A stretch of DNA of 64,000 nt from Flaccisagitta enflata. Its lineage: Eukaryota. The stretch lies in assembly GCA_965153355.1 (NCBI GenBank), contig OZ231126.1, positions 7,006,001 to 7,070,000 on the forward strand, given 5' to 3'. The first letter of the stretch is position 1. Each line of letters opens with the position of its first letter. A program made the translations under genes and the position numbers. Below the pieces are notes generated by a model. The model was not told the origin of the DNA and ran no database searches. It saw only the letters and a program-made list of their open reading frames with translations. This document shows positions 11,452-62,401 of the stretch, piece by piece.

Positions 11452-12552
11452 TCTTACACGCAGTTGAATTTGATTTCAGAGGGAAATCTGAAATGTTGAG
11501 ATCTACGAGCTCACCTTTTTCAAGCCCTACCTTGTTAGAAAGACTGGCTCCAAGATGAATCAAGCTGCAATAAAGGGATACTCCACAGATGTTAACAAAT
11601 AACCCGGGGAAACAATGTTGTCGCGGATATACAACCCCCACCCCCTCCACACACACAATTTCTTTGCACAATTTCAAATGAGCATCTTAAAACTTAAGTT
11701 AGGATGCACATTTTCACACTTTTCAAATCGAGCATTACAGAGAGCTGGACTAACAGATCGACAAATGGATTGACAAAGCCTCTTGAAGACTCGCAAGTCC
11801 GCAATTAAGAACCAGGCTGAAACTTTGAAAACCTTCAAAAGATACACATGAAGGAGTTCATCAAAATCAATCACAAACACTCTACGACATTTCATTTTCT
11901 TTGTCAGTTTTTAGTCGCGTGCTACGCGACTCTACACCCTCCTTTGTTGGTCCATCCGTTGGTCCGTCGGTCCGTCAGTCCGTCGGTCCGTTGGTCTGTC
12001 CGTCTGTCCGTCCGTCCGTCCGCCCATCCGTCTGTCTGTCAGTCAGTCCGTCCTCCCGTCACATTTTACTTTTTTTTGGTTTTTGGGATTTTTGGCTTCA
12101 CTGCTCCTGCCCAAATGATCTGGTGACGGCAATTACAGCCCCTGTCCACCCGCACGCAACTGGGGTAGCTTTGTATCCAGCCTTGTTTTCTTTTCAGTTT
12201 TATTTCTCAGCTCCTGTTTGTTACATGCTACGCGACTCTACAGTATCAATCAACCACAGTGTGGTGCAGTGCTCCTGGTCACTAGAGCATTTGGGCAAGA
12301 GCAGTGAGGCCAGAGTCCATAAAACATAAAAAAGTAAAAAGGGGACTAACCAACCAACGGACGCACAGACAAAGCGGGTTGTAGAGTTGCGTGCATGCAA
12401 CTAAAAAGCGCACATTTTGAATAATTGATGTTGGGTTATGACATTTGTATGATTTTTTAAATATCTTTCTATTAACACAAATCAAAGTACTTGCGTGCAC
12501 GCAACTCTACAACCCCCTTTGTCTGTGCGTCCATTGGTTGGTTAGTCCCCTT

Positions 12553-45138: not shown

Positions 45139-46934
45139 AGAAAGAAAGAACAGATCCATATTCTTAAAAATGCAAATCTATGCATTCAGAGACACATTAA
45201 GAATTTCATGTAAGACAAGTCAAGGGATGGAGGCAAATTTTCTTTTTTTTCTTTCAATTTTTCCAACTGGTTTTGAATGCAAATAAATATATAACTTTTA
45301 ATAAAAATATGATTTCTTTTTTAAAAATTTCAAATTTATTATTTTTTTTTTAGAATATGATTTGACCGTGAAAATTGCCCCATCCTGTGTACCTTGTCGT
45401 AATGACCGGTTCGAGAAAGAAACATCTAATCACCTCTGAGACGAAGAAATGCCGTAATTATGCCCTCCATCTTCCCACCCCCCTACCTCTTCCATCTTCC
45501 CCTATCTTCCCTCTTCCATCTTCCCCCTATCTTCCCTTCCCCCCCCCCCCCTCACCAGTCGTTCTCCGGTAAAAGCGTCCCGATAGACGAATCAACATTG
45601 GCAATCACCGAATAATGATTCCAGTAAAACAAGTCAAGAGCGAGCCCATGTTCGGAGTGAGCGAGCGTAGCAAGCATAGTGGAGCGAAATGCTGCGGAGC
45701 AAGTGAGCGGAGTGGGTAGTGCCAGCGAACGAACGTAGCGAGCGACTGAGTAGCCTGCTAAAAACGCGATTAGCATGTGTAGAAACATGCCCTGAGACTT
45801 CCAGGTGTTTTTCTACTCAAACTCATCTATAGCTTGACTTGAACATACATCTCAAAGGACTTAAGAATTGCAAAGATTACTGGAAATTGAGGGATATTGT
45901 GTTTTCTTCGCAACAGCCAAATTGACATTAATTCGTACGTGCATGTTACATGAACAAGGCCGTATACACTCCCCCTCCCATGTATGAACAAGTGATGCGG
46001 GGTCACAAAGTTTTGCAATTTTAAATGCTGCTTTGGCCGTTCGGCGGTACGTTTGCCTGTCGATCGTGACTCTATAACCCGCTTTGTCACTGTCTGTCAC
46101 TTTGCTTATTTAGCATTTATGGGCGTTTTCCCCATTACTGCTCCTGCCCAAATGCTTGGTTTAGCCTCTATTATTACTGCCCCTGCTCCTATTTTTAGTC
46201 GCGTGCACGCGACTCTATAACCCACTCTGTCCATCTGTTGGTCAGAGACGCTTAGCTTTTTGCCGTCGTTTTATGCCATTATGAGTCATTTTAAGTCATT
46301 TTAAGTTATTTAAAGTTAATTGAAGTTTTTTCAGTCTCTTAGTCTTTTGGTCTTTTAGTCTTTTAGTCACATGGTCTTGCGCCACATATGGCCTGTATAA
46401 AAACAAGGCCAAGAGATGTCCAACAGATGCATCCTCTTTTTATGTAAGATATTAACATACAAATCATTTACATATAAAAATTTTGATAGCATGATATAAT
46501 GATATGAAGATATTAAGATATTGAGATAGAGAGAAAAATATTATCTAATTCTTCGCTCACCCCCCCCCTAACTCTCTCCCCTCCCACTCCTCATTCCCCA
46601 ACACCTCCCCACCCCCACCCCCACGCCTCCCCGGCCCAGCCCCCGACGCCTCCCCATCCTCCTACGCCTCCCCACCCCCACGCCTCCCCAAACCCCATTG
46701 CCTCCCCACCCACCCCCATGCCTCCCCACCCCTCCCCACTATGTGAAGAGACATGGAGAGACCTTAAGAGACATAAGGAAACAAGAGGAGACATGAGAGA
46801 CATGAAAAAACATGAGGAGACATGAAGAGACATAAGAGACATGAGAGACATAAGAGACCAGATTGTTCCCCCTCCCCCCGTGAGGGGGGAAAATAATCAA
46901 AGGGTCTGGAGATGGGGAAGGAAATCAAAGGGAA

Positions 46935-47455
46935 ACTAGTCATCCAAGGATCGCACATGGTCAGCGATACCCGATGCCCTGCTGGGAGTGATCCAGTAAA
47001 GAGGTGGAGTGAGAGCAGGGCAGCGGCCCCAAAGGGCCGATGTCCTGTAGAACACAGGGGGGAATTTCCAGACGTCCTGAGGGGGCAATAGATGACTGAT
47101 TCAGGCCAAAGAAGGCATAGTTGAAGGCTGGAGGGCAGAATTAAGGCTTGGAGAGTGGATTTGAGGTTTGGAGGGCAAATTTGAGCCAAAGAAGGCTGAT
47201 TTGATGCTTGGAGGCCTAATTGAAGGTCTGGAGGGCAGATCTGAGGTCTGGAGGTCAGATTTGAGGCGGGGGGGCTGATTTGAAGCCTGGAAGGCTGATT
47301 TGAGGTCTGAAGGGTTAAATTTAGGGCTGGGAGGGCAAATTTGAGGCCTTGATGGCCAACGGGGGGGGGGGACGGACGGAAGGACGGACGGACGTATGGA
47401 AATTCCCCCCTGTGTTCTACAGGACATCGGCCCTTTGGGGCCGCTGCCCAAAAAG
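46935..47455 (-). mobile_element. HINE-like family 2 copy nested in a hAT-type MITE
   Basis: gggcagcggcccc / ggggccgctgccc inverted pair with an internal ~21-bp tandem repeat. The flanks resemble the 20088-20417 element (ends tatacacccctg near 47803). Confidence 0.6.
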
Positions 47456-49104
47456 AGAAAACAAGGCCGGATACACGGCCAATACCAGTTGCGGACGGGT
47501 GGGCAGGGGCGGAAATGCGCGTTTTCCCACTTTTCAACTCGAGCGTGACGGACCAACCGACGGACCGACGGACCGACGGACGGACAAAGCCTCTTATAGA
47601 GTTGCGTGTCCGCAACTAAAAAGGAAATTTGGGGAAAATATAACGTTTGACAGTACCAAATCATAAAACACGATTAGTAAAACACAATTTAACACTATCT
47701 AAAACTTAACTAAAAAATTTTATTGCTATATGGCGAAGAAATTCATAGATATAAAAACGCGGGGGGGGGGGGAATCAATAGCGACTCAATAATATACACC
47801 CCTGTAAGAGACATTAGAGAAATAAAGTGTTTAGTTTTCGATCAAGCTCGCAAAAACTTCAACTTATGTCTACCCTTGGCTATGATGACTTCTATTCGGC
47901 ATTAGTATGATACATCGAACCTTAGCAAGAGTTAGAAGAAAAAGAAGAAGAAGAAGAAGAAGAAGAAGAAGAAGAAGAAGAAGAAGAAGAAGAAGAAAAA
48001 GAAGAAGAAGAAGAAAAAGAAAAAGAAAAAGAAGAAGAAGAAGAAGAAGAAGAAGAAGAAGAAGAAGAAGAAGAAGAAGAAGGAGAAGAAGAAGAAGAAG
48101 AAAAAAGAAAAAGAAAAAGACAAAGACAAAGACAAAGACAAAGAAAAAGAAAAAGAAAAAGAAAAAGAAAAAGAAAAAGAAAAAGAAGAAGAAGAAGAGG
48201 AGGAAAAAGAAAAATTTACAGTAACAGTTTATCAAACTGCGCCTTCGGAAGCGGAATCCACTTGTTTTTCTGCATTTGCTATACAGACATGTCATCTTAA
48301 AATTATTCTTATTTCTAAATGCTTTGAGCAACTGGAACGGGATTGGTCGCAAGTGAAAGATCTTTTAAAGTAGTTTCTGAATCTCACTAGGTATTATTAT
48401 TTAAAAGTGTTTATGGGTAAACGAAGATTTTTTATGATGCAGAATCCTAAGATTACCGTCCAGATCACTATCTGGCCAAGGTACCCTGGGACAATATCAA
48501 GTGTCGCTTCGCGAATGGGTGATTCTAGACATATTCTTAAGCCATCAAGTACAAAGCGCTGGGAACTTTTTGGTTGAATGACTTTGATGAATATCAAAAC
48601 TGCGTTGAAGGTAATCCAACATCATCTCCCCCATCAATCATTGTCTTAATCCACTAAAAGTCTTTGGATGAACTGCTTTCGAATAAAGATAGATAATGCT
48701 TTGTCTTTGTTACCCCGTCTAAGAGAGTTCCTGAAAGAAAGTGGAAATGCACTTCTTGATGTGTAACTCCTATGATTTTTAATCGCGTGCTACGCGACTC
48801 TACACCGCGCTTTGTCAGTCTGTCTATTGGTCACATTTGTCTTTTCCATGTCTTTAGTTGCGGACACGCAACTCTATAAGAGGCTTTGTCCATCCGTCCG
48901 TCCGCCCGATGGTCCGTCGGTATGTCGGTCGGTCCGTCCGTCCGTAAGCACGAGTCGAAAAGTGGGAAAATGCGCATATCCGCCCCTGCCGACCCGTCCG
49001 CAACTGATGGCCGTGTATCCGGCCTTGTTTATTCTTTGACCTCCTTGCTTCTGCCCAAATGCTATGATGACCTTCAATACAGCCCCTGCCCTACCACACG
49101 CATC

Positions 49105-53169: not shown

Positions 53170-53505
<336 letters not shown>

Positions 53506-53666
53506 ATAACTGCAAAATCAATAAAGAAAAACCTTAACAGCAAGAACAAAAGTAAACAACAACAAAATCAACAATAACACCTCGTAATTTGATGAGGTGA
53601 AGAAAAAAGTGCACCCAGCAAAAAAAAAGAGATATTTTCTTTGAGGTGATCAGAGGAGGCAAGGCA

Positions 53667-55428
<1,762 letters not shown>

Positions 55429-55440
55429 GTGAGAAAATGC

Positions 55441-55518
<78 letters not shown>

Positions 55519-55575
55519 CAATGAGGATAATGTTGATGAAAATGCAGCAGCTTGAAGCGATTGTATTGAATGATA

Positions 55576-55656
<81 letters not shown>

Positions 55657-55706
55657 TTGATTCATGCATCCTCTCATCCCTCTTAATTACACATCTTTCT
55701 TTTCAG

Positions 55707-55841
55707 GATTGACGTCTTTGCCTCCTCTTTCTCCTTCATCGTGTTTGAAGAAACTCGTCGCTAAACAATGTAACATTCAGTCTCTTCCTCATAATCTGTT
55801 TCATCACAAATCGGAAGACATCAACTTGTTTGGAAACAAAG
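55707..55841 (+). CDS. ROCO gene exon 2: 135-nt symmetric (phase 1-1) LRR cassette
   Basis: Acceptor ctttcttttcag at 55706. Encodes (G)LTSLPPLSPSSCLKKLVAKQCNIQSLPHNLFHHKSEDINLFGNK. Donor AAAG|GTGGTG. In frame with exon 1. Confidence 0.82.
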
Positions 55842-55860
55842 GTGGTGATGATGATGATGT

Positions 55861-55937
<77 letters not shown>

Positions 55938-56023
55938 GTGAGGATGATGATGATGATGGTGATGTTGATGATGATGATTCATGTATCCTCTTATCCCTCT
56001 TAATAGATCATCTCTCTTTTCAG

Positions 56024-56158
56024 GATTGACGTCTTTGCCTCCTCTTTCTCCTTCATCGTGTTTGAAGATACTCTACGCTCGTGGATGTGACATTCAGTCT
56101 CTTCCTCATAATCTGTTTCATCACAAATTGGAAGAGATCGACTTGTTTGGAAACAAAG
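56024..56158 (+). CDS. ROCO gene exon 3: 135-nt symmetric (phase 1-1) LRR cassette, duplicate of exon 2
   Basis: Acceptor ctctcttttcag at 56023. Encodes (G)LTSLPPLSPSSCLKILYARGCDIQSLPHNLFHHKLEEIDLFGNK. Donor AAAG|GTGATG. Confidence 0.85.
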
Positions 56159-56186
56159 GTGATGATGATGATGATGATGATGATGC

Positions 56187-56223
<37 letters not shown>

Positions 56224-57529
56224 AATGATGACGATGACTTTTAATGGCTTAAATACTCAGTGATAAAATTTTGTTACTTGCGTGCTATGCGATTCTACAC
56301 CCCAAATTGTTTATCCGTCGGTTGGTTGTTTAGTTTTTTATTTTTCATGTTTCTTTTCTTATGTTATGTTTTTGCACCCTTTGGCCTCACTGCTCCTGGC
56401 CAAATACTCTAGTGACCTTATAAGTGGCCCCCGCCCACCCGCATGCGACCAGGATAGCCGTGTATCACGCAAATCAAAGAAAAAGACGCAGCCCTTGATT
56501 TATTAATGAAACAGATCACAAAAATGATTTTAACTATTTTCAGTAAAGTCGTTTTTAAAGATTTTCAAAAAATCTTTCATTCTAGACCAACCCAAGGTCT
56601 GTATCTCAATCGGTTTAGAAGCTAGAGCTCTGCAAAGAGAAGCACTATTTTCCTGAAATGCATTTTATAGTAGCGTGCACGCGACTCTACAACCCTCTTT
56701 GTCCGTCCGTTGGTCCATCGGTCCGTCGGTCCATTGGTCCATCACACTTTACTTTTTTATTATACTTAAAGTTATTCCTAGTCATTCTAAGTCATTCTAA
56801 GTCATTCTTAGTCATCCTAAGTCATTCTTACTCATTCTAAGTCATTCTAAATTATTTTAAGTCACTTAAGTCAAATAGGTCAAAAAAGTCATTTCAGTCA
56901 TTTTAGGTCTTTTTAAGTCATTTAAAGTTGTCCTGAGTCACTTTAAGTCATCTTGAGTCAATAAAAGTCATCTTAAGTTATCTATATCTCGCACGCGACT
57001 TATAGGTGTTGGCCTTGTTCCATAGGGATTGCGAAACTGAAATGAGCAACATTTTTAGTCGCGTGCTATGCGACTCTACACCCCGCTTTGTCGGTCCGTC
57101 CATCGCTTCGTCCGTCCGTCGGTCCGTCCGTCACACTTTACTTTTTTGGTTTTTTTGCGGTCTTTGGGCTCACTGCTCCTGCCCAAATGATCAAGTGACC
57201 TCAATTACAGCCCCTTCCCACCCGCATGCGACTGGGGTAGCCGTTTATCCGGCATTGTTATTCAAACTAATGCCATTTTTAGTCGCGGACACGCGACTCT
57301 ACACCTTGCCGAGCGGTTTTTGCAATATTGCTTCTGCCCAACAGTCCGCGACTGGATTGCCGTGTATCCGGCCTTGTTTGATTAGTTTCTCTAAATTTTT
57401 ATGGCTAAAAGAGTTTTTTAGATGCGTCCTCGCATCTCTATAATAGGTCATGTCCGTCCGTTGGTCGGTTGGTTGGTTGGTTACGCATTCGTCCAAATCG
57501 AGAAATCCTGCAGAAATCTTGCAGAATAT

Positions 57530-57765
57530 TGCATCATAATCATCAGCATCATCGTCGTCATCATCTTCGTCATCATAATCATCATCGTCGTCATCGTCGT
57601 CATCATCATCATCATCATCATCATCGTCGTCGTCAAAGTCGTCATCATCAGCATCAACGTTACAATCCTCATCGTTGTCATCATTCATCGACATCATCCT
57701 TATCAGTTTTTTTTTCATCGACATCAACATTATCGTCGTCATCATAAAATCATCATCATAGTTAC

Positions 57766-57826
<61 letters not shown>

Positions 57827-58108
57827 GCTACCATCATCATCGTCGTTACCATCATCATCATCGTTACCATCATCATCATCGTTACCATCGTCATCATCAT
57901 CATCATCGTCGTCGTCGTCGTCGTCGTCGTCGTCATCATCATCATCATCATCATCATCATCGCTACTATCGTCATCATCATCGTCATCGTCATCGTCATC
58001 ATCATCAGCGTCGTCGTCGTTGTGATCGTCATAATCAACGTCATCGTCATAATCAATGTCATCGTTATAATCGTCAACGTTGTCATCATTCAACATCATC
58101 ATTATCAT
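57530..58108. repeat. (CAT/CGT)n compound microsatellite in ROCO intron 3
   Basis: Seen directly; complementary in orientation to the (GAT)n tracts at 55441-56240. Confidence 0.9.
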
Positions 58109-58119
58109 AGTTTTTTACA

Positions 58120-58505
58120 TACGTCCTCTCATCTCTATGATAGGGCATGTCTGTCCGTTGGTCGGTTGGTTACACATTCATCATAATCCACTATATCCAG
58201 GCCATATCACACATGAATCACAAGCAAACCACCACATATCAATTTTAGATGCGTCCTCTTATCTCTTTAAGAGGGCATGTCCATCCGTTGGTCAGTTGCT
58301 TTCACATTCATCATAATCCACTATATCCAGGCCATATCACACATGAATCACAAGCAAACCACCACATATCAATTTTAGATGTGTCCTCTTATCTCTATAA
58401 GAGGGCATGTCCATCCGTTGGTCAGTTGCTTACACATTCATCATAATCCACTATATTTATGCTATATCACACATGAATCACAAGCAAACCACCACATATC
58501 ATTTT
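58120..58505. repeat. Tandem repeat, about 120-bp unit, 3 copies, in ROCO intron 3
   Basis: agggcatgtc..ccgttggtc..cacattcatcataatccactatat..atcacacatgaatcacaagcaaaccaccacatatc repeated three times. Confidence 0.85.
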
Positions 58506-58951
58506 CTATAGTTAAACTATGAAATTTGCAACAACTATGTATGATAAAAAATATTTTTAACTGCCCATGCAAATGTCATATCATTAAACAGGTTCATAAA
58601 CTGGATCAATAAAGCAGAGCAGCATGGCATAAATTCATATGATATTAAAGAAGACATTTTTAGTGAGAATAAAGTAGAACCATATAGTAAAATCATATAA
58701 AGAAAGACCTCATAAAACAAGATTAAGTAAAGTAAGGTCACATCAAGCATTAACATAAGCAAAATCATCAAGTGGCACCTCAAGCTATGATACCCAAAAA
58801 GTGAAACTATTATGTGAGACAATTAAAAATGTAATCATATAAAAAAAGACCATATAAATAAAGAAGAGGACGCATCGTTGGCCTATCTGGCCTTGTTTTT
58901 ATTCGCGTGGTATCCAGCCTTGTTTCATTTCTCACTTATATTCAGTTCTCA

Positions 58952-59068
<117 letters not shown>

Positions 59069-59069
59069 G

Positions 59070-62000
59070 GCCTGACATACCTGCCAACTCTGCTTCCAAC
59101 TTCACCATTGAGGCGTTTGTATGCGGGAAATTGCGCCATCAAATCCATACAAGCATCATTCATTCGTCGTGGATTGCAGTTGAATTTGGAGAACAACAAC
59201 ATTGAAGAGATGCCACGTGATGAGTTACTCACCTTTCTCAATGGAGGAGGAACATTCCACTATAGGGATGGAATATCATTCTCCCTGAATCCATTGACTT
59301 ACCCTCCAAAGCATATCTATGAAGAGGGTAAGGAATCTGTAATCAAATACTTGACGAACTTTAGCAACTCTATGGTCAATGCCGATGATGTCACAATCAT
59401 GTTGATTGGTAAACAAGAGGCTGGTAAGACTTCTCTAGGCCACTGTCTGGCAGGGAAAATTGTGTCTGCCAGTGAAATCCTCAAATTAGATCGCACCCAG
59501 GCATTTGATAACTACATTTGCATATTACAAGGGACCAAAGTTAAAATCATTGATTTAGGTGGTCACAAAGAGTATGAATCTTGTCTGGCTGTGCTGCTCA
59601 GGGAAAATGGTCTCTTCATATGTCTCTTGAACCCAAATGATCTGAAAAGTGAGGAAACGATCCATGAAGCAGTTTGGCAGTGGGTAGAGAAGGTCCTCGA
59701 TGGCGTTGACAGTCCTCACTTTCTGTTTGTGGTCTCAAAAATTGATGAGATTGAGGAGGCAGAGAGAGCAGAAAGAGTAGGTGAGATGAGGAAAGTGCTG
59801 AAAGCATATCTTGAGGGCAAAAGGGATGAGTTGCTCGAGGCAAGAAAAGCAAGGGAAGAAACACTTAAAGAGGAATTAGCAGATGCTGATGGTGATGAAG
59901 AAAGGAAGAGTCGGTTGGAAAAAAACCTGAGCAAACAGACCAACAAAGTCAGGAATCCACCAAACTTTAACACAGAATGCATTTCCTTTGTCAGCTCTGC
60001 AGATAGACAAGGTTATGATCAGTTGGAGAATCATTTGAAGAAGGCAATTGATCAATCATCAAAAGTCTTGATACAAGAGCATTGGAAGGATACCATTGAT
60101 TGGCTTTTATCTAAGAATCAAGACAAGCCATATGTCCATTTGAGTGAGTTACTCAAAAACACAACCCTTTCTGAGTACGAAGTGAATGAATTACTCAAGG
60201 CACTGACTCACATAGGAACTATAGTATGGGATGATAGTCAAGAAAGAAGAGGAATCATTTTCCACCGACTTGACCAACTTGCAGTGATCATGAAAGCCAT
60301 TTTCTATCATGACATGAATCACGTTCTCAGTCTCTTTGCATCCTTTGCACAAGTTGACAAAGAATCCCTCATCAAACACTACAAACAAGGACTGTTGCCA
60401 TTTGACCTCATTCGACCCATGTTTACTCATGTTACCACACACTTGGCAAAACCCCTAGACAACCTTAACACATCGCAGGTTATCCCTGAATCACGCCTTG
60501 AACACCCCCGTGATAGGATCCAAATCAAATTTGATGACATTGATTTCAGCCATGTTGATTCTTCATCAGACAATCTAATGGAATCCTTTCTCTCTACCCT
60601 TTCCCAGTTGAGTATTGCTTTGCTAGTTGATGAGGAAATTATGGGACTTAAGATGGTTTATGTCCCTCATCTATCCTATGAACAAACAACTGATCCTAAC
60701 TGGATTGAGAGCTTTGCACCCTCAAATCCCCCTTTCCAACTGGGTGTAGGCTTTAGTTTTGAAACATCAGTTTGTAAAAAGACCATGGCAAAATGTTGCG
60801 TAGAGTCAATGGCAGTCATGCAAAGGCTTACCAAAATCACCAGTCAAAAACTTGAGCTGCTTGCAAAAGTTGATGCAGCCATCATGTTTACTGACAATTT
60901 TCATGTCAGCCTGAGTAAAACTGATCCCCAGGAAATGAGGTTATTTGTCATGCTCAAAAAAGATGGTATTCTCCCTGAGACAGTTTGGATTCTTGTCAAT
61001 GATATAACGGCAAAATTCAAGCTGGCAGATCGCGATTGTAAATTACTTTGCCCCATCCAGAAGAGCCAGAACCATGGTGATTATGATCCCAGTCCAACAT
61101 ATCATGGAAAGTCATTGGAAGAAGCAAAGAAATGGGGAAGAAAAGCCTCTAAAGATTTGTGCCGCAAGTGCAAGATTGAGGCCTGCTTCCCTAGTCAATT
61201 AGCAATTGAAATGATGGCCACTCTTCACACCCAAGAGGGTAAGTGCTATTCCCCACTGGCCATCAAACCCCACGATTCTGGCAAAGCTCTGGCACATTAT
61301 CTGGAAACGCGGACCTTGCTTTCCGTTATTGCTGACCATAAGATTGAGAACCCAACTATCCTCAAACAGATGCCCGCCTTCTATCAGACACACCGTGATA
61401 GGTTCCTGAAAATAATACGTCCTGTTAGGCAGCACTTCGACAACATCTCCATATGCAATGAAAAAGCTCACCAAAAAGGATGTAAATGCTTTCAAACTTC
61501 CACAGAGTACATAACAAGCTTTACCCAAATAGAGCAAAATTCTGCGATTGTCACAAAAGGGGATTGGACAAAATCACTGACCACTCTTAAGGTGAAATAC
61601 CCCAAATTCCTGCAAGAATTTACTGGTGTGCCCTGTGGTGTGGCTGCAATGGTAAGAAACTTTCGCAATTTTGCAGCTCATGAAGATCCAGAGGAGTTGA
61701 GTGATGAGTTTTGGTTGGCTCTCAGTGGTAGCTTTGAGTATACTTGCATGCACTGCTTTGCTACAAGAGTCCGCACCTCACTCTCTCAGCACCCTGAACT
61801 GATGCTCCTTGCTGATGCTTTCTTTCAGTATGAGACTTCCATGTGCAATGAGGGCTCAGACAAGGGAATTTTGTCAAGACCATGTCTGCCATTGCTATGG
61901 GTTGTCTTGTTCTTTGCCAATGGAACCGAGAAGGAGTCAACTTTCTACTTTGACTCAAAAGATCCTTTGATTGGCAAAATTGCTCCAGTCTTCCAATTGC

Positions 62001-62401
62001 CAAAGAATTTCACAGCAAGGATCACTTACCACGGAATCTTCACAGGGGCCAAGCCATTAGACCCAAGTCTGGGCCGAGAATTGTCATCACCTGAGGATTT
62101 TGTGTCACTAAACCTTGACACGAGATACACTCACCTCATTCACGTGAATGAGTGGAAAGTCAATGTCCAAATTAAAACAATTACGACAACTGTTGAGAAG
62201 GAATTCACTTCCAGTGATACCGCTGAAACAGTTTTGAAGTATGTTGAGGAGCAGGCTGGTGTCAAAAAACTGGTTTTGCACTATGACAAAAAGAAGATGG
62301 GCAAATCTGACAGCATTGGATCGGTTTGCAAGGGTACAACATGCCAATTGGTAGCATTAGATCCTAGAAGTAGAGAACAAAGAGACAGGTTTCTCTCCTG
62401 A
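59070..62401 (+). CDS. ROCO gene exon 4: last LRRs, Roc GTPase, COR, candidate HEPN and ubiquitin-like domain(s) (MFHAS1-like ROCO core)
   Basis: Acceptor (CT)n-ccag at 59069; phase 1 gives GLTYLPTLLPTSPLRRLYAGNC, in frame with ORF 59108..62401. LRR-Roc linker NPLTYPPKHIYEEGKESVIKYL. P-loop GKQEAGKT (59408-59431), G3 DLGG (59552-59563), G4 SKID (59735-59746), G5 VSSA (about 59990), with a helical insert between G4 and G5. COR-like W..YVHL..LLKALTHIGTIVW..IFHRL. RNFAAH at 61664-61681. Spliced product about 1787 aa from ATG 53667. Confidence 0.93.

What the first reader, a model, noticed from the sequence alone, without database searches (positions are those of the whole stretch)
55707..56158. 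Duplicated LRR exons differ only at amino-acid-changing codons on the predicted binding face
Hand alignment of the two 135-nt exons gives 12 nucleotide differences in 8 codons, all changing the amino acid (K/I, V/Y, K/R, Q/G, N/D, S/L, D/E, N/D). No silent differences occur in the remaining codons. The changes cluster in the two LxxLxLxxN/C strand segments (LKKLVAKQCN vs LKILYARGCD; SEDINL vs LEEIDL), with multi-base changes such as aaa/cgt and caa/gga. The duplicated intron flank shows ordinary scattered divergence. This pattern is expected from diversifying selection or patchwork gene conversion on an LRR ligand-binding surface, as in plant NLRs and lamprey VLRs.
Basis: partly seen in the sequence, partly recalled or inferred. 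Interest (0 to 1): 0.85.

Follow-up and report, generated by a model that had tools for sequence, protein, structure and literature searches.

The report
Twin LRR exons in ROCO gene
Two neighbouring copies of a small exon in a large GTPase-type, receptor-like gene differ only within the strand segments of their leucine-rich repeats, mostly at positions expected to be exposed, and they belong to a large family of such exon cassettes; this resembles what is known from brown-alga ROCO genes and hints at, but does not prove, selection for varied binding surfaces.

Summary
Exon A (55707-55841) and exon B (56024-56158) differ at 12 of 135 bases, in 8 codons, all amino-acid-changing. "No silent change" is weak by itself (P 0.03 to 0.27). 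The placement is not chance: 9 differences lie in 21 nt (P 9e-5). At the ten codons in exposed xxLxLxx positions pN is 0.38, against 0.06-0.14 for intron flank and silent sites.

The exons are phase-1 cassettes of two LRRs each, copies of a 317-nt tandem unit with (ATG)n introns. The gene reads LRR, Roc GTPase, KEN/HEPN-like domain, two ubiquitin-like domains.

Two DNA runs of the same organism laid 220 and 200 contigs on exon A. So the cassette is a large family. Its common variation falls in the same two patches, but silent variants are frequent. Four cassettes on unnamed contigs vary at the same columns.

Best reading: sister exons diversifying at exposed LRR positions, by selection on point changes and/or short patch exchange. 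Expression, ligand binding and family-wide dN/dS are untested. Nothing supports somatic, VLR-like assembly. Closest known case: LRR exon shuffling in brown-alga ROCO genes. I rate it a new variant of a known kind.

The parts
53667..55428 (+). Candidate first coding exon. It has an acidic and poly-Q low-complexity N-terminus, then LRRs in a two-repeat rhythm (LKKLxLxxC alternating with [IL]EEIxLxxN), and ends ...AAC AAA G|gt (phase 1).
   Evidence: ORF 53601-55712. ATG at 53667 and length 3n+1. Pfam LRR_8 at 2.3e-19 and LRR_4 at 3.9e-15 on 54600-55427. Donor AAG|GTGAGA. The start codon and the coding status of the repeat-rich part are inferred; there is no RNA evidence.
55429..55706 (+). Intron 1 (278 nt). 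It is mostly (ATG)n. It holds a 31-nt relic (55538-55568) of the exon-1 LRR at 55190-55220 and ends in a pyrimidine tract plus CAG.
   Evidence: TRF ATG array 55437-55661. Relic 93.5% identical over 31 nt, E 3e-8. Acceptor TTTCTTTTCAG|G.
55707..55841 (+). Exon A: a 135-nt phase-1 cassette encoding two LRRs (GLTSLPPLSPSSCLKKLVAKQCN / IQSLPHNLFHHKSEDINLFGNK). It is the copy that fits the LRR consensus less well.
   Evidence: Weaker donor AAG|GTGGTG. No Pfam LRR hit at E up to 1, whereas exon B hits LRR_4 at 1.2e-4. Letters T55758, C55812 and C55819 have shares of 0-7% in the family sample.
55752..55772 (+). Variable patch 1 in exon A (partner 56069-56089 in exon B): 9 of the 12 differences, at positions 3, 5, 7, 8 and 10 of the first LxxLxLxxC segment.
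   Evidence: Family-wide common variants at 55753-55772, and a depth dip at 55754-55767.
55812..55823 (+). Variable patch 2 in exon A (partner 56129-56140 in exon B): 3 differences, at positions 1, 3 and 5 of the second LRR segment.
   Evidence: Exon B shares the 11-mer AATTGGAAGAG with the homologous place of the upstream cassette at 55396. The family carries T at 55812 in 50 of 50 and 38 of 38 contigs. So exon A is the derived copy here.
55842..56023 (+). Intron 2 (182 nt): (GAT/ATG)n followed by a 49-nt flank 85.7% identical to the end of intron 1.
56024..56158 (+). Exon B: the sister 135-nt phase-1 cassette (…LKILYARGCD / IQSLPHNLFHHKLEEIDLFGNK).
55570..56237 (+). The 317-nt tandem duplication unit (microsatellite, intron flank, exon, microsatellite), 2.1 copies.
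   Evidence: TRF, 91% matches. The repeat finder family D7, 300 nt, 91%.
56159..59069 (+). Intron 3 (2911 nt): (GAT)n at its start, dispersed and tandem repeats inside, and (TC)60 running into the acceptor CCAG|G.
   Evidence: If this intron were retained, the frame would read poly-Asp up to the stop at 56242-56244 (ORF 55978-56244).
59070..62401 (+). Large last exon (1109 codons plus stop). It opens with a third, older homologous cassette (59070-59204, GLTYLPTLLPTSPLRRLYAGNC...). Then come the NPLxYPP linker, a Roc-type GTPase (59396-59746; G1 motif at 59405-59428), a KEN/HEPN-like helical domain (about 61274-61876, with RNFAAH at 61664-61681) and two ubiquitin-like domains (about 61892-62371).
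   Evidence: ORF. Pfam Roc 1.8e-5, 25.4 bits, below the cut-off of 27. A profile of 6 homologues hits Roco Roc-COR structures: 4wnr_A 1e-9, 6hlu_A 5e-8, LRRK2 Roc 2.5e-5. Ribonuc_2-5A is matched by 8 of 26 family members, best E 3.2e-5, but not by the window's own protein. R865 N866 A869 H870 are invariant in 6 of 6. C-terminal model pLDDT 86.2; Foldseek di-ubiquitin, ISG15 and OASL at E about 1e-6; VIA Z 11.6.

Best explanation
Exons A and B are sister copies from a recent tandem duplication of a 317-nt unit made of one exon and one microsatellite intron. The duplication most likely arose by unequal exchange or slippage between the (ATG)n introns. The gene is ROCO-type: LRR, Roc GTPase, KEN/HEPN-like domain, tandem ubiquitin-like domains. 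Each exon is an in-phase cassette (phase 1, 45 codons) that adds two LRRs to the solenoid. Both belong to a family of probably a hundred or more near-identical cassettes in this genome. After the duplication the two copies kept an identical framework but changed faster than neutral sequence within the two strand segments, mostly (6 of 8 codons) at the positions expected to be solvent-exposed. I read this as diversification of the LRR surface. Replacements at exposed positions are favoured, or at least tolerated and retained. They come from single-base changes and/or very short patch exchange with other cassettes. Shown: the duplication, the phase, the placement and local excess of differences, the large family and where it varies, and the domain content. 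Inferred: splicing and expression, the recombination mechanism, selection as the cause, and a sensor role for the LRR.
For: Duplication and sisterhood: a 317-nt unit at 91%; 0 differences in the 102 exon bases outside the patches. Both copies share the minority silent letters A55753 and C55756, which have family shares of 9-28% and 16-37%.

In-phase exons: donors AAG|GT, pyrimidine-tract CAG|G acceptors, and introns of 278, 182 and 2911 nt, all phase 1. The intron-less relative P0068 reads straight across the same ...GNK|GL... joint, and P0168 carries two such cassettes in tandem.

Local excess: pN 0.38 at the 10 a-priori exposed codons against 0.026 at the other 34 (Fisher 6.7e-6), and against neutral yardsticks of 0.057-0.143 (P 7e-5 to 0.015). 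There are 12 differences in 33 patch bases against 7 in 49 intron bases (Fisher 0.02).

Family: 220 and 200 contigs at 80% identity or more lie on exon A in two DNA runs. Summed word depth reaches 38,057 and 30,846 on the exon, against 273-819 and 0-162 on the intron flank. Common variants concentrate at 55751-55772 and 55811-55819. Other cassettes also end AACAAAG|GT[GA]AGGATGATGA.

Independent cassettes (P0168 twice, P0169, P0170) vary at 6 of the 8 A/B-differing columns against 12 of 34 others (Fisher 0.05, Mann-Whitney 0.007).

Each multi-base codon difference can be split into single steps through the family-majority codons GAC, CAA and GAA (my inference).

Precedent: LRR exon shuffling with positively selected concave-side sites in brown-alga ROCO genes (PMC11378527 abstract and sections 11 and 15; PMC3341825 passages).
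Against: - No RNA evidence. The one RNA run of the organism gave 0 reads from 12.2 million records, about 6% of the run, so neither exon is shown to be spliced in.
- Two sequences and perhaps 4-6 mutational events make a small sample, and multi-base events inflate the base-level tests.
- In the family sample 13 of 29 listed variable exon sites are silent in exon A's context. Inside patch 1 the silent sites (55753, 55756, 55759, 55762, 55771) are as variable as the replacement sites. So the family data do not show dN above dS.
- One change (Leu to Ser at position 1 of the second LRR) weakens the fold rather than the surface, and exon A no longer scores as an LRR in Pfam. Its C at 55812 is unseen in both DNA runs.
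- Most letters that distinguish A from B already occur in other cassettes at 8% or more. That fits exchange of standing variation without any selection.
- The concave-face mapping was not tested on a model of this protein.
Confidence: 0.55

Rival explanations
1. Neutral patchwork. Short-tract gene conversion or template switching among the many cassettes moves pre-existing variants around at positions that are simply unconstrained. No selection for diversity is involved.
For: At 8 of the 12 differing sites both the A and the B letter occur in other cassettes at about 8% or more. The differences come in tight blocks, and a 4-base block is also seen in the intron flank. Silent sites inside patch 1 are as variable as replacement sites. 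A relic of another LRR sits in intron 1, which shows the region rearranges.
Against: Both copies keep the rare silent letters A55753 and C55756 inside patch 1. A tract covering the whole patch would need an unusual donor, so any tract must be about 16 nt or shorter. No donor for patch 1 exists in the window: no shared word of 11 or more, and the 9- and 10-mers are at chance level. Another cassette encodes the same Y-A-R residues with different codons (loose-end consensus at 55768, agreement 0.81). That looks like conservation of a variant at protein level, not a fresh copy.
Confidence: 0.2
2. Alternative use. A and B are cassette or mutually exclusive exons, so that one gene yields receptors with different LRR surfaces. 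The differences then mark two isoforms kept by selection.
For: The exons have the same length and phase and lie in tandem. The donors of A (GTGGTG) and B (GTGATG) are weaker than the family's GT[GA]AGG. Alternative splicing of tandem LRR exons is reported for brown-alga ROCO genes (PMC11378527 abstract and sections 11 and 15).
Against: 135 nt is 45 codons, so including both exons keeps the frame, and an LRR solenoid tolerates two extra repeats. The 182-nt intron is long enough to splice. There are no RNA data. I did not look for competing RNA pairings.
Confidence: 0.1
3. Decay. Exon A is a redundant duplicate drifting under relaxed constraint and is perhaps no longer spliced in.
For: Exon A has Ser at a core Leu position, rare letters at 55758, 55812 and 55819, no Pfam LRR score and the weakest donor. 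Its own intron-flank letters were not seen in run X24.
Against: Relaxed constraint cannot exceed the neutral rate, yet the patches differ at 12 of 33 bases against 7 of 49 in the intron, and the other 102 exon bases are identical. Exon B carries as many minority letters as exon A, 6 of 12 each. The frame and both splice sites are intact.
Confidence: 0.08
4. Assembly artefact. Two alleles of one exon were stacked in tandem next to a microsatellite.
For: The microsatellite flanks are hard to assemble. No listed contig spans the whole stretch. C55812 is unseen in both runs, and A-type intron letters are absent from X24.
Against: A-type and B-type intron letters are both present in X1, at one third and two thirds of depth at 55688 and 55691. 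Tandem cassettes occur on an independent contig (P0168). The introns differ in length and content.
Confidence: 0.05
5. Somatic assembly or hypermutation of LRR cassettes, as in lamprey VLR genes.
For: Only the large number of cassettes and the hypervariable patches.
Against: The gene is complete in the germline-type assembly. The cassettes carry ordinary splice sites in one phase and one orientation. No tissue comparison is available.
Confidence: 0.02

Closest known systems
LRR exon shuffling in brown-alga LRR-ROCO genes (Ectocarpus: Zambounis et al. 2012, PMC3341825, passages read. Four brown algae: Teng et al. 2024, PMC11378527, abstract and sections 11 and 15 read)
   Same: An N-terminal LRR followed by a Roc GTPase. 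LRR units are encoded by separate in-phase exons of fixed length that duplicate in tandem. The framework is conserved and the variable residues lie in the LxxLxLxxN strand. Both papers propose the genes as intracellular immune receptor candidates. By my mapping of their numbering, their positively selected sites (14, 16, 18, 19 of a 23-residue repeat) correspond to consensus positions 3, 5, 7 and 8. Those are the positions that differ in the first LRR of exons A and B. This mapping is my inference and I did not check it against their figures.
   Different: There, each exon holds one LRR, is 72 nt long and is phase 2. Here each exon holds two LRRs, is 135 nt long and is phase 1. Here the introns are (ATG)n/(GAT)n microsatellites, also in the related cassettes. 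No COR domain was detected here; instead there is a KEN/HEPN-like domain and two ubiquitin-like domains. The window's G+C of about 40% is lower than I recall for brown algae. Positive selection and alternative splicing are shown there and not here.
Tetrahymena LRR genes with arrays of exactly 90-bp exons (PMC6564038, passages read)
   Same: Mass amplification of fixed-length, in-phase LRR exons by unequal crossing-over.
   Different: The exons there are 90 bp and phase 2, in tens of thousands of copies. The passages I read describe no ROCO context and no claim about a hypervariable patch.
Solvent-exposed xxLxLxx residues of plant NLR and receptor-like LRRs under diversifying selection (as summarised in PMC11378527 section 15; otherwise recalled)
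   Same: A conserved framework with replacements concentrated at strand positions 2, 3, 5, 7 and 8.
   Different: Plant LRRs are not built from duplicated single cassettes with microsatellite introns, and their signalling domain is NB-ARC rather than Roc.
Lamprey VLR cassette assembly (recalled; mentioned in PMC3341825)
   Same: Many LRR cassettes with variable concave-face residues.
   Different: VLR germline genes are incomplete and are completed somatically from flanking cassettes that lack splice sites. Here the gene is complete and the cassettes are ordinary exons.
RNase L and OASL (domain analogy only; KEN as a HEPN RNase from PMC3710099, passages read)
   Same: A repeat-type sensor domain joined to a KEN-type RNase-like domain, as in RNase L. 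The tandem ubiquitin-like tail resembles that of OASL or ISG15 (Foldseek 7sbi_B and ISG15 chains).
   Different: The sensor here is an LRR rather than ankyrin repeats, and a Roc GTPase stands in place of the pseudokinase. RNase activity is untested, and the window's own protein does not reach any Pfam KEN score.

Membership tests
ROCO proteins | Roc (Ras of complex) GTPase domain | tested here: met
   The G1 motif GKQEAGKT, DLGGH and SKID are present. Pfam Roc gives E 1.8e-5 at 25.4 bits, just under the cut-off of 27, for the window's protein. It matches 6 of 6 aligned homologues, best E 8.5e-8. A profile of the 6 hits Roco structures 4wnr_A (1e-9), 6hlu_A (5e-8) and LRRK2 Roc (2.5e-5), including the NPLxxPP linker before Roc.
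ROCO proteins | COR domain directly after Roc | tested here: inconclusive
   No Pfam COR-A or COR-B hit in the window's protein or in the 6 homologues. Remote representatives that do carry Roc with COR-A and/or COR-B (P0075, P0080, P0087, P0091, P0098) align to query residues up to about 335-450. That reaches beyond Roc, but the COR fold was not tested.
ROCO proteins | N-terminal LRR (the LRR-Roc arrangement) | tested here: met
   Pfam LRR_8 at 2.3e-19 on exon 1. The best homologue of the LRR part carries precomputed Roc and COR families (P0001).
Brown-alga type LRR exon shuffling | One LRR per 72-nt exon, phase 2 | tested here: not met
   The exons are 135 nt, encode two LRRs and are phase 1.
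Brown-alga type LRR exon shuffling | Tandem duplication of in-phase LRR exons, many copies per genome | tested here: met
   A 317-nt tandem unit. 220 and 200 contigs lie on the exon in two DNA runs. P0168 has two cassettes in tandem.
Brown-alga type LRR exon shuffling | Positive selection (omega above 1) at concave-side sites | tested here: inconclusive
   For the pair, pN at exposed codons is 0.38 against neutral yardsticks of 0.06-0.14. For the family, silent variants are common and the other cassettes' DNA could not be fetched.
Brown-alga type LRR exon shuffling | Alternative splicing of the LRR exons | not testable with these tools
VLR-like somatic cassette assembly | Incomplete germline gene, with donor cassettes that lack splice sites | tested here: not met
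   The reading frame is complete through four exons with GT/AG sites in one phase.
Mutually exclusive tandem exons (Dscam type) | Tandem exons of equal length and phase, of which only one is included | tested here: inconclusive
   Equal length and phase are met. Including both keeps the frame. There are no RNA data. Docking and selector pairings were not examined.
HEPN / KEN RNase domain | Rx4-6H motif with a polar residue after R (PMC3710099, passages) | tested here: met
   RNFAAH at residues 865-870 of the last exon. R865, N866, A869 and H870 are invariant in 6 of 6 homologues.
HEPN / KEN RNase domain | Family profile match and fold | tested here: inconclusive
   Pfam Ribonuc_2-5A is matched by 8 of 26 family members, best E 3.2e-5. 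P0039 scores 20.6 bits against a cut-off of 23.3. The window's own protein has no hit at E up to 1. The region is helical at pLDDT mostly above 90 in the 509-residue model, but the fold searches were filled by the ubiquitin-like domains. The domain folded alone was poor, pLDDT 52.8.
LRR concave-face variability | Variable residues lie on the concave beta-sheet of this protein | not tested
   The mapping rests on the general xxLxLxx rule.

The most novel reading that the evidence does not exclude
The locus is one member of a large, germline-encoded library of two-LRR exon cassettes. Their microsatellite introns would let cassette number change quickly and let short patches move between cassettes. 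The result would be a hypervariable intracellular sensor family. Its output would be a Roc GTPase switch driving a KEN/HEPN-type RNase with an ISG15/OASL-like double ubiquitin tail. That would be an RNase-L-like defence module with a diversifying LRR sensor, outside vertebrates and outside brown algae.
Probability: 0.15. Interest if true: 0.8.

Novelty: new variant of a known kind. Interest (0 to 1): 0.5.

Why it matters
Fixed-length LRR exons that multiply and vary at exposed positions are the basis of the proposal that brown-alga ROCO genes are fast-evolving immune receptors. This locus shows a similar design with different units: two LRRs per exon, phase 1, microsatellite introns. It also has a different output end, a KEN/HEPN-like domain plus two ubiquitin-like domains, in a genome with about 40% G+C. 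If confirmed, it would be a second, independent case of ROCO-based receptor diversification. It would also suggest a mechanism, microsatellite introns acting as recombination substrates, that can be tested directly with long reads. I found no paper holding both 'KEN domain' and 'ROCO'. The three papers holding 'ROCO', 'HEPN' and 'leucine-rich repeat' do not describe this architecture in the passages I read.

Tried and rejected
- Whole-genome search: no genome is held for this window, so cassettes could not be collected genome-wide.
- RNA: run X23 gave 0 reads on 55656-55850 from about 6% of the run. This is no test of expression. I chose a repeat-free 195-nt stretch because the tool turns away long repeats, so splice joints to the other exons could not be seen.
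- DNA of other cassettes: an exact 26-mer scan of metagenome contigs found 0. A protein-pattern scan gave 200 pattern matches, none confirmed. A viral-contig scan found 0.
- Conversion donor inside the window: none for patch 1. For patch 2 there is only the 11-mer shared by exon B and the upstream cassette.
- KEN/HEPN fold: the PDB profile search gave only a chance-level spectrin hit at E 1.1. The isolated-domain model was too poor to search, pLDDT 52.8. ESM Atlas gave no usable hit. Foldseek and VIA-align lists for the 509-residue model were filled by ubiquitin-like matches.
- Organism: no names came from the cluster look-up, Rfam gave 0 matches at gathering score, and the earlier-findings look-ups were empty. 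I did not pursue the origin of unnamed records.
- Relaxed constraint as the sole cause: rejected because the patches exceed the intron's divergence while the rest of the exon is identical.
- 'B carries the family letters, A is the odd one' as a general rule: rejected. Each copy has the majority letter at 6 of the 12 sites. It holds only for patch 2 and the intron flank.
Full report
**The observation.** Exon A (55707-55841) and exon B (56024-56158) lie 317 nt apart and differ at 12 of 135 bases. In the frame fixed by the splice sites the differences fall in 8 codons, all changing the residue (K/I, V/Y, K/R, Q/G, N/D, S/L, D/E, N/D). No codon differs silently. blastn gives 91.1% identity for the exons and 85.7% over 49 nt for the 3' intron flank. 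The 64-kb window holds no further copy. TRF reports one 317-nt unit, 2.1 copies, 91% matches, at 55570-56237.

**Is it more than chance?** The lack of silent changes is only weakly informative.
- Nei-Gojobori counts are Sd 0.5 of 29.3 sites and Nd 11.5 of 102.7 sites, with Fisher P 0.044 if all bases are independent.
- The chance of no silently changed codon is 0.033 for 12 random substitutions. It rises to 0.20-0.27 if the blocks stand for 4-5 events.
- The placement is not chance. Nine differences lie within 21 nt (P 9e-5), and all twelve lie within 33 nt in two blocks (P 5e-5).
- Six of the 8 changed codons are among the ten codons at positions 2, 3, 5, 7 and 8 of the two LxxLxLxxN/C segments (hypergeometric P 7e-4).
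- At those ten a-priori codons pN is 0.38, against 0.026 at the other 34 codons (Fisher 6.7e-6).
- The neutral yardsticks are 0.143 for the intron flank, 0.096 for flank plus exon silent sites, and 0.057 if the four adjacent intron changes count once (Fisher P 0.015, 0.0015, 7e-5).
- The 102 exon bases outside the blocks are identical, while the intron flank differs at 7 of 49.

So relaxed constraint alone cannot explain the pair. S/L is the core Leu at position 1 of the second LRR, not a surface residue. Four of the seven intron differences are adjacent, so block-wise change is not limited to the exon.

**What the exons are.** Both are bounded by AAG|GT donors and pyrimidine-rich CAG|G acceptors. 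The introns are 278, 182 and 2911 nt and all are phase 1. Upstream lies an open frame (candidate ATG at 53667, ending at 55428) with an acidic and poly-Q N-terminus and LRRs (Pfam LRR_8 2.3e-19). These LRRs follow a two-repeat rhythm, LKKLxLxxC then [IL]EEIxLxxN. Each 135-nt exon encodes one such pair. Downstream, after an intron full of repeats, a 1109-codon exon (59070-62401) opens with a third, older homologous cassette.

Two unnamed relatives support the joints. P0068 reads without interruption from an upstream-type cassette across ...GNK|GL... into a downstream-type cassette. P0168 carries two A/B-type cassettes in tandem, separated by a translated Asp- and Met-rich stretch. There is no RNA evidence. 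The single RNA run of the organism gave 0 reads on 55656-55850 from about 6% of the run, so splicing and expression are inferred.

**The gene.**
- The last exon has GTPase motifs and a marginal Pfam Roc score (25.4 bits, cut-off 27).
- A profile of six homologues hits Roco Roc-COR structures (4wnr_A 1e-9, 6hlu_A 5e-8) and LRRK2 Roc, including the NPLxxPP linker.
- Remote representatives are LRR-Roc proteins with COR-A and/or COR-B, two of them with CARD. COR itself was not detected here.
- Further on, R865, N866, A869 and H870 (RNFAAH) are invariant in 6 of 6 homologues. This is the Rx4-6H signature of HEPN RNases (PMC3710099, passages).
- Eight of 26 family members match Pfam Ribonuc_2-5A, the KEN domain, with best E 3.2e-5. 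The window's own protein does not.
- The fold could not be confirmed.
- The C-terminus is a pair of ubiquitin-like domains: model pLDDT 86.2, Foldseek di-ubiquitin, ISG15 and OASL at E about 1e-6, VIA Z 11.6.
- The family is small in the protein libraries: 26 representatives at E up to 1e-30, mostly fragments, none named.

**A larger cassette sample.** Laid at 80% identity or more, two DNA runs of the same organism put 220 and 200 contigs on exon A. Of these, 29 and 13 were at 99% or more, and 85 and 96 were under 90%. Summed word depth reaches 38,057 and 30,846 on the exon, against 273-819 and 0-162 on the intron flank. The tool warns that this is not a copy number. I read it only as a large family, of the order of a hundred or more.

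Loose ends show that other cassettes also end AACAAAG|GT[GA]AGGATGATGA, so the (GAT)n introns belong to the family. Common variants (5% or more) are listed at 29 exon sites, and 9 further rows were not shown.
- 13 are silent in exon A's context: 55720, 55723, 55729, 55735, 55741, 55747, 55753, 55756, 55759, 55762, 55771, 55780, 55816.
- 16 are replacing.
- All nine bases of codons 16, 18 and 19 (positions 5, 7 and 8 of the first LRR) vary, several with two or three alternatives.
- Depth dips at 55754-55767.

So variation is concentrated where A and B differ. Silent variation is frequent too, also inside patch 1, and the family data do not show dN above dS.

At protein level, four independent cassettes (P0168 twice, P0169, P0170) vary at 6 of the 8 A/B-differing columns against 12 of 34 others (Fisher 0.05, Mann-Whitney 0.007). 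The 19 downstream-type cassettes of relatives are also more variable at the five first-LRR columns (mean entropy 2.12 against 1.26).

**How A and B relate to the family.** Each copy has the family-majority letter at 6 of the 12 sites.
- Exon A's T55758, C55812 and C55819 are rare (0-7%). C55812 is seen in none of 50 and 38 contigs.
- Exon B shares an 11-mer with the upstream cassette at the homologous place, so exon A is the derived copy in patch 2.
- Exon A no longer scores as an LRR in Pfam, whereas exon B does.
- Both copies share the minority silent letters A55753 and C55756 inside patch 1. This supports direct sisterhood and argues against a conversion tract covering the whole patch.
- The multi-base codon differences (aaa/cgt, caa/gga, gtc/tac) can each be reached by single steps in the two copies from the family-majority codons CAA, GAA and GAC. 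This is my inference.
- Most distinguishing letters already occur in other cassettes, so very short patch exchange remains possible.

**Mechanism proposed.**
- Unequal exchange or slippage between microsatellite introns duplicated one cassette. This is inferred. A 31-nt relic of another LRR inside intron 1 shows that the region rearranges.
- Both copies are probably spliced in series, lengthening the solenoid by two repeats each. This is also inferred.
- Replacements at exposed strand positions were then retained faster than neutral change. The excess is shown for the pair. Selection as its cause is inferred.

**Comparison with known systems.** The closest case is LRR exon shuffling in brown-alga ROCO genes. 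There each 72-nt, phase-2 exon holds one LRR. Positive selection is reported at four concave-side sites, and alternative splicing is observed (PMC11378527 abstract and sections 11 and 15; PMC3341825 passages). Tetrahymena has arrays of 90-bp LRR exons (PMC6564038 passages).

This locus differs from the brown-alga case in several ways:
- unit size, phase and number of LRRs per exon;
- microsatellite introns;
- domain content after Roc;
- G+C of about 40%.

It fails the defining features of VLR-type assembly. I rate it a new variant of a known kind, of moderate interest. The decisive data are the other cassettes' DNA, transcripts, and long reads across the locus. None of these was within reach.

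Noticed in passing
window 61274-62371 (last exon, residues about 735-1100): After the Roc GTPase the protein carries a helical domain with an invariant RNxxAH motif. Pfam's RNase L/Ire1 KEN model matches this region in 8 of 26 relatives. Two ubiquitin-like domains resembling ISG15 or OASL follow. I found no paper holding both 'KEN domain' and 'ROCO'.
   Followed up: partly
window 55538-55568 (inside intron 1): A 31-nt relic, 93.5% identical to the exon-1 LRR at 55190-55220, sits between two (ATG)n runs. It is a trace of an earlier rearrangement in this intron.
   Followed up: partly
window 55812: Exon A's C, which makes Ser at a core Leu position, is carried by none of the 50 and 38 contigs covering the site in two DNA runs of the same organism. 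It could be a private variant or an assembly error.
   Followed up: partly
window 55656-55691: Run X24 shows only B-type letters at 55688 and 55691 and no depth at 55656-55662. Run X1 shows both types. Exon A's unit may be absent or different in that sample, although contigs cannot prove absence.
   Followed up: no
window 55842-56029 and 56159-56244: The (GAT)n at the start of introns 2 and 3 reads poly-Asp in the exon's frame, up to stops at 56027-56029 and 56242-56244. The same is seen after the cassettes of P0168-P0170. Intron retention would give an LRR-only protein with an acidic tail.
   Followed up: no
window 53172-54565: Very long triplet arrays: (AAC)111 upstream of the candidate start, then (GAA)29 and a (CAA/CAG)-type array of 166 units inside the open frame, read as poly-E and poly-Q. 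Whether all of this is coding is unknown.
   Followed up: no
window 56260-59066 (intron 3) and elsewhere (e.g. 11829-12329, 46764-47673): Dispersed repeats with a GTCCGTCCG-rich core occur here (families D9, D10, D13, D14). Intron 3 also has a 130-nt unit repeated three times (58113-58505), a 10-nt minisatellite (56769-56978), a (CAT)191 array (57532-58108) and (TC)60 running into the acceptor of the last exon.
   Followed up: no
window 1-64000: No Rfam family reaches its gathering score anywhere in the window. Apart from this gene, the long open frames are low-complexity or repeat-derived.
   Followed up: partly
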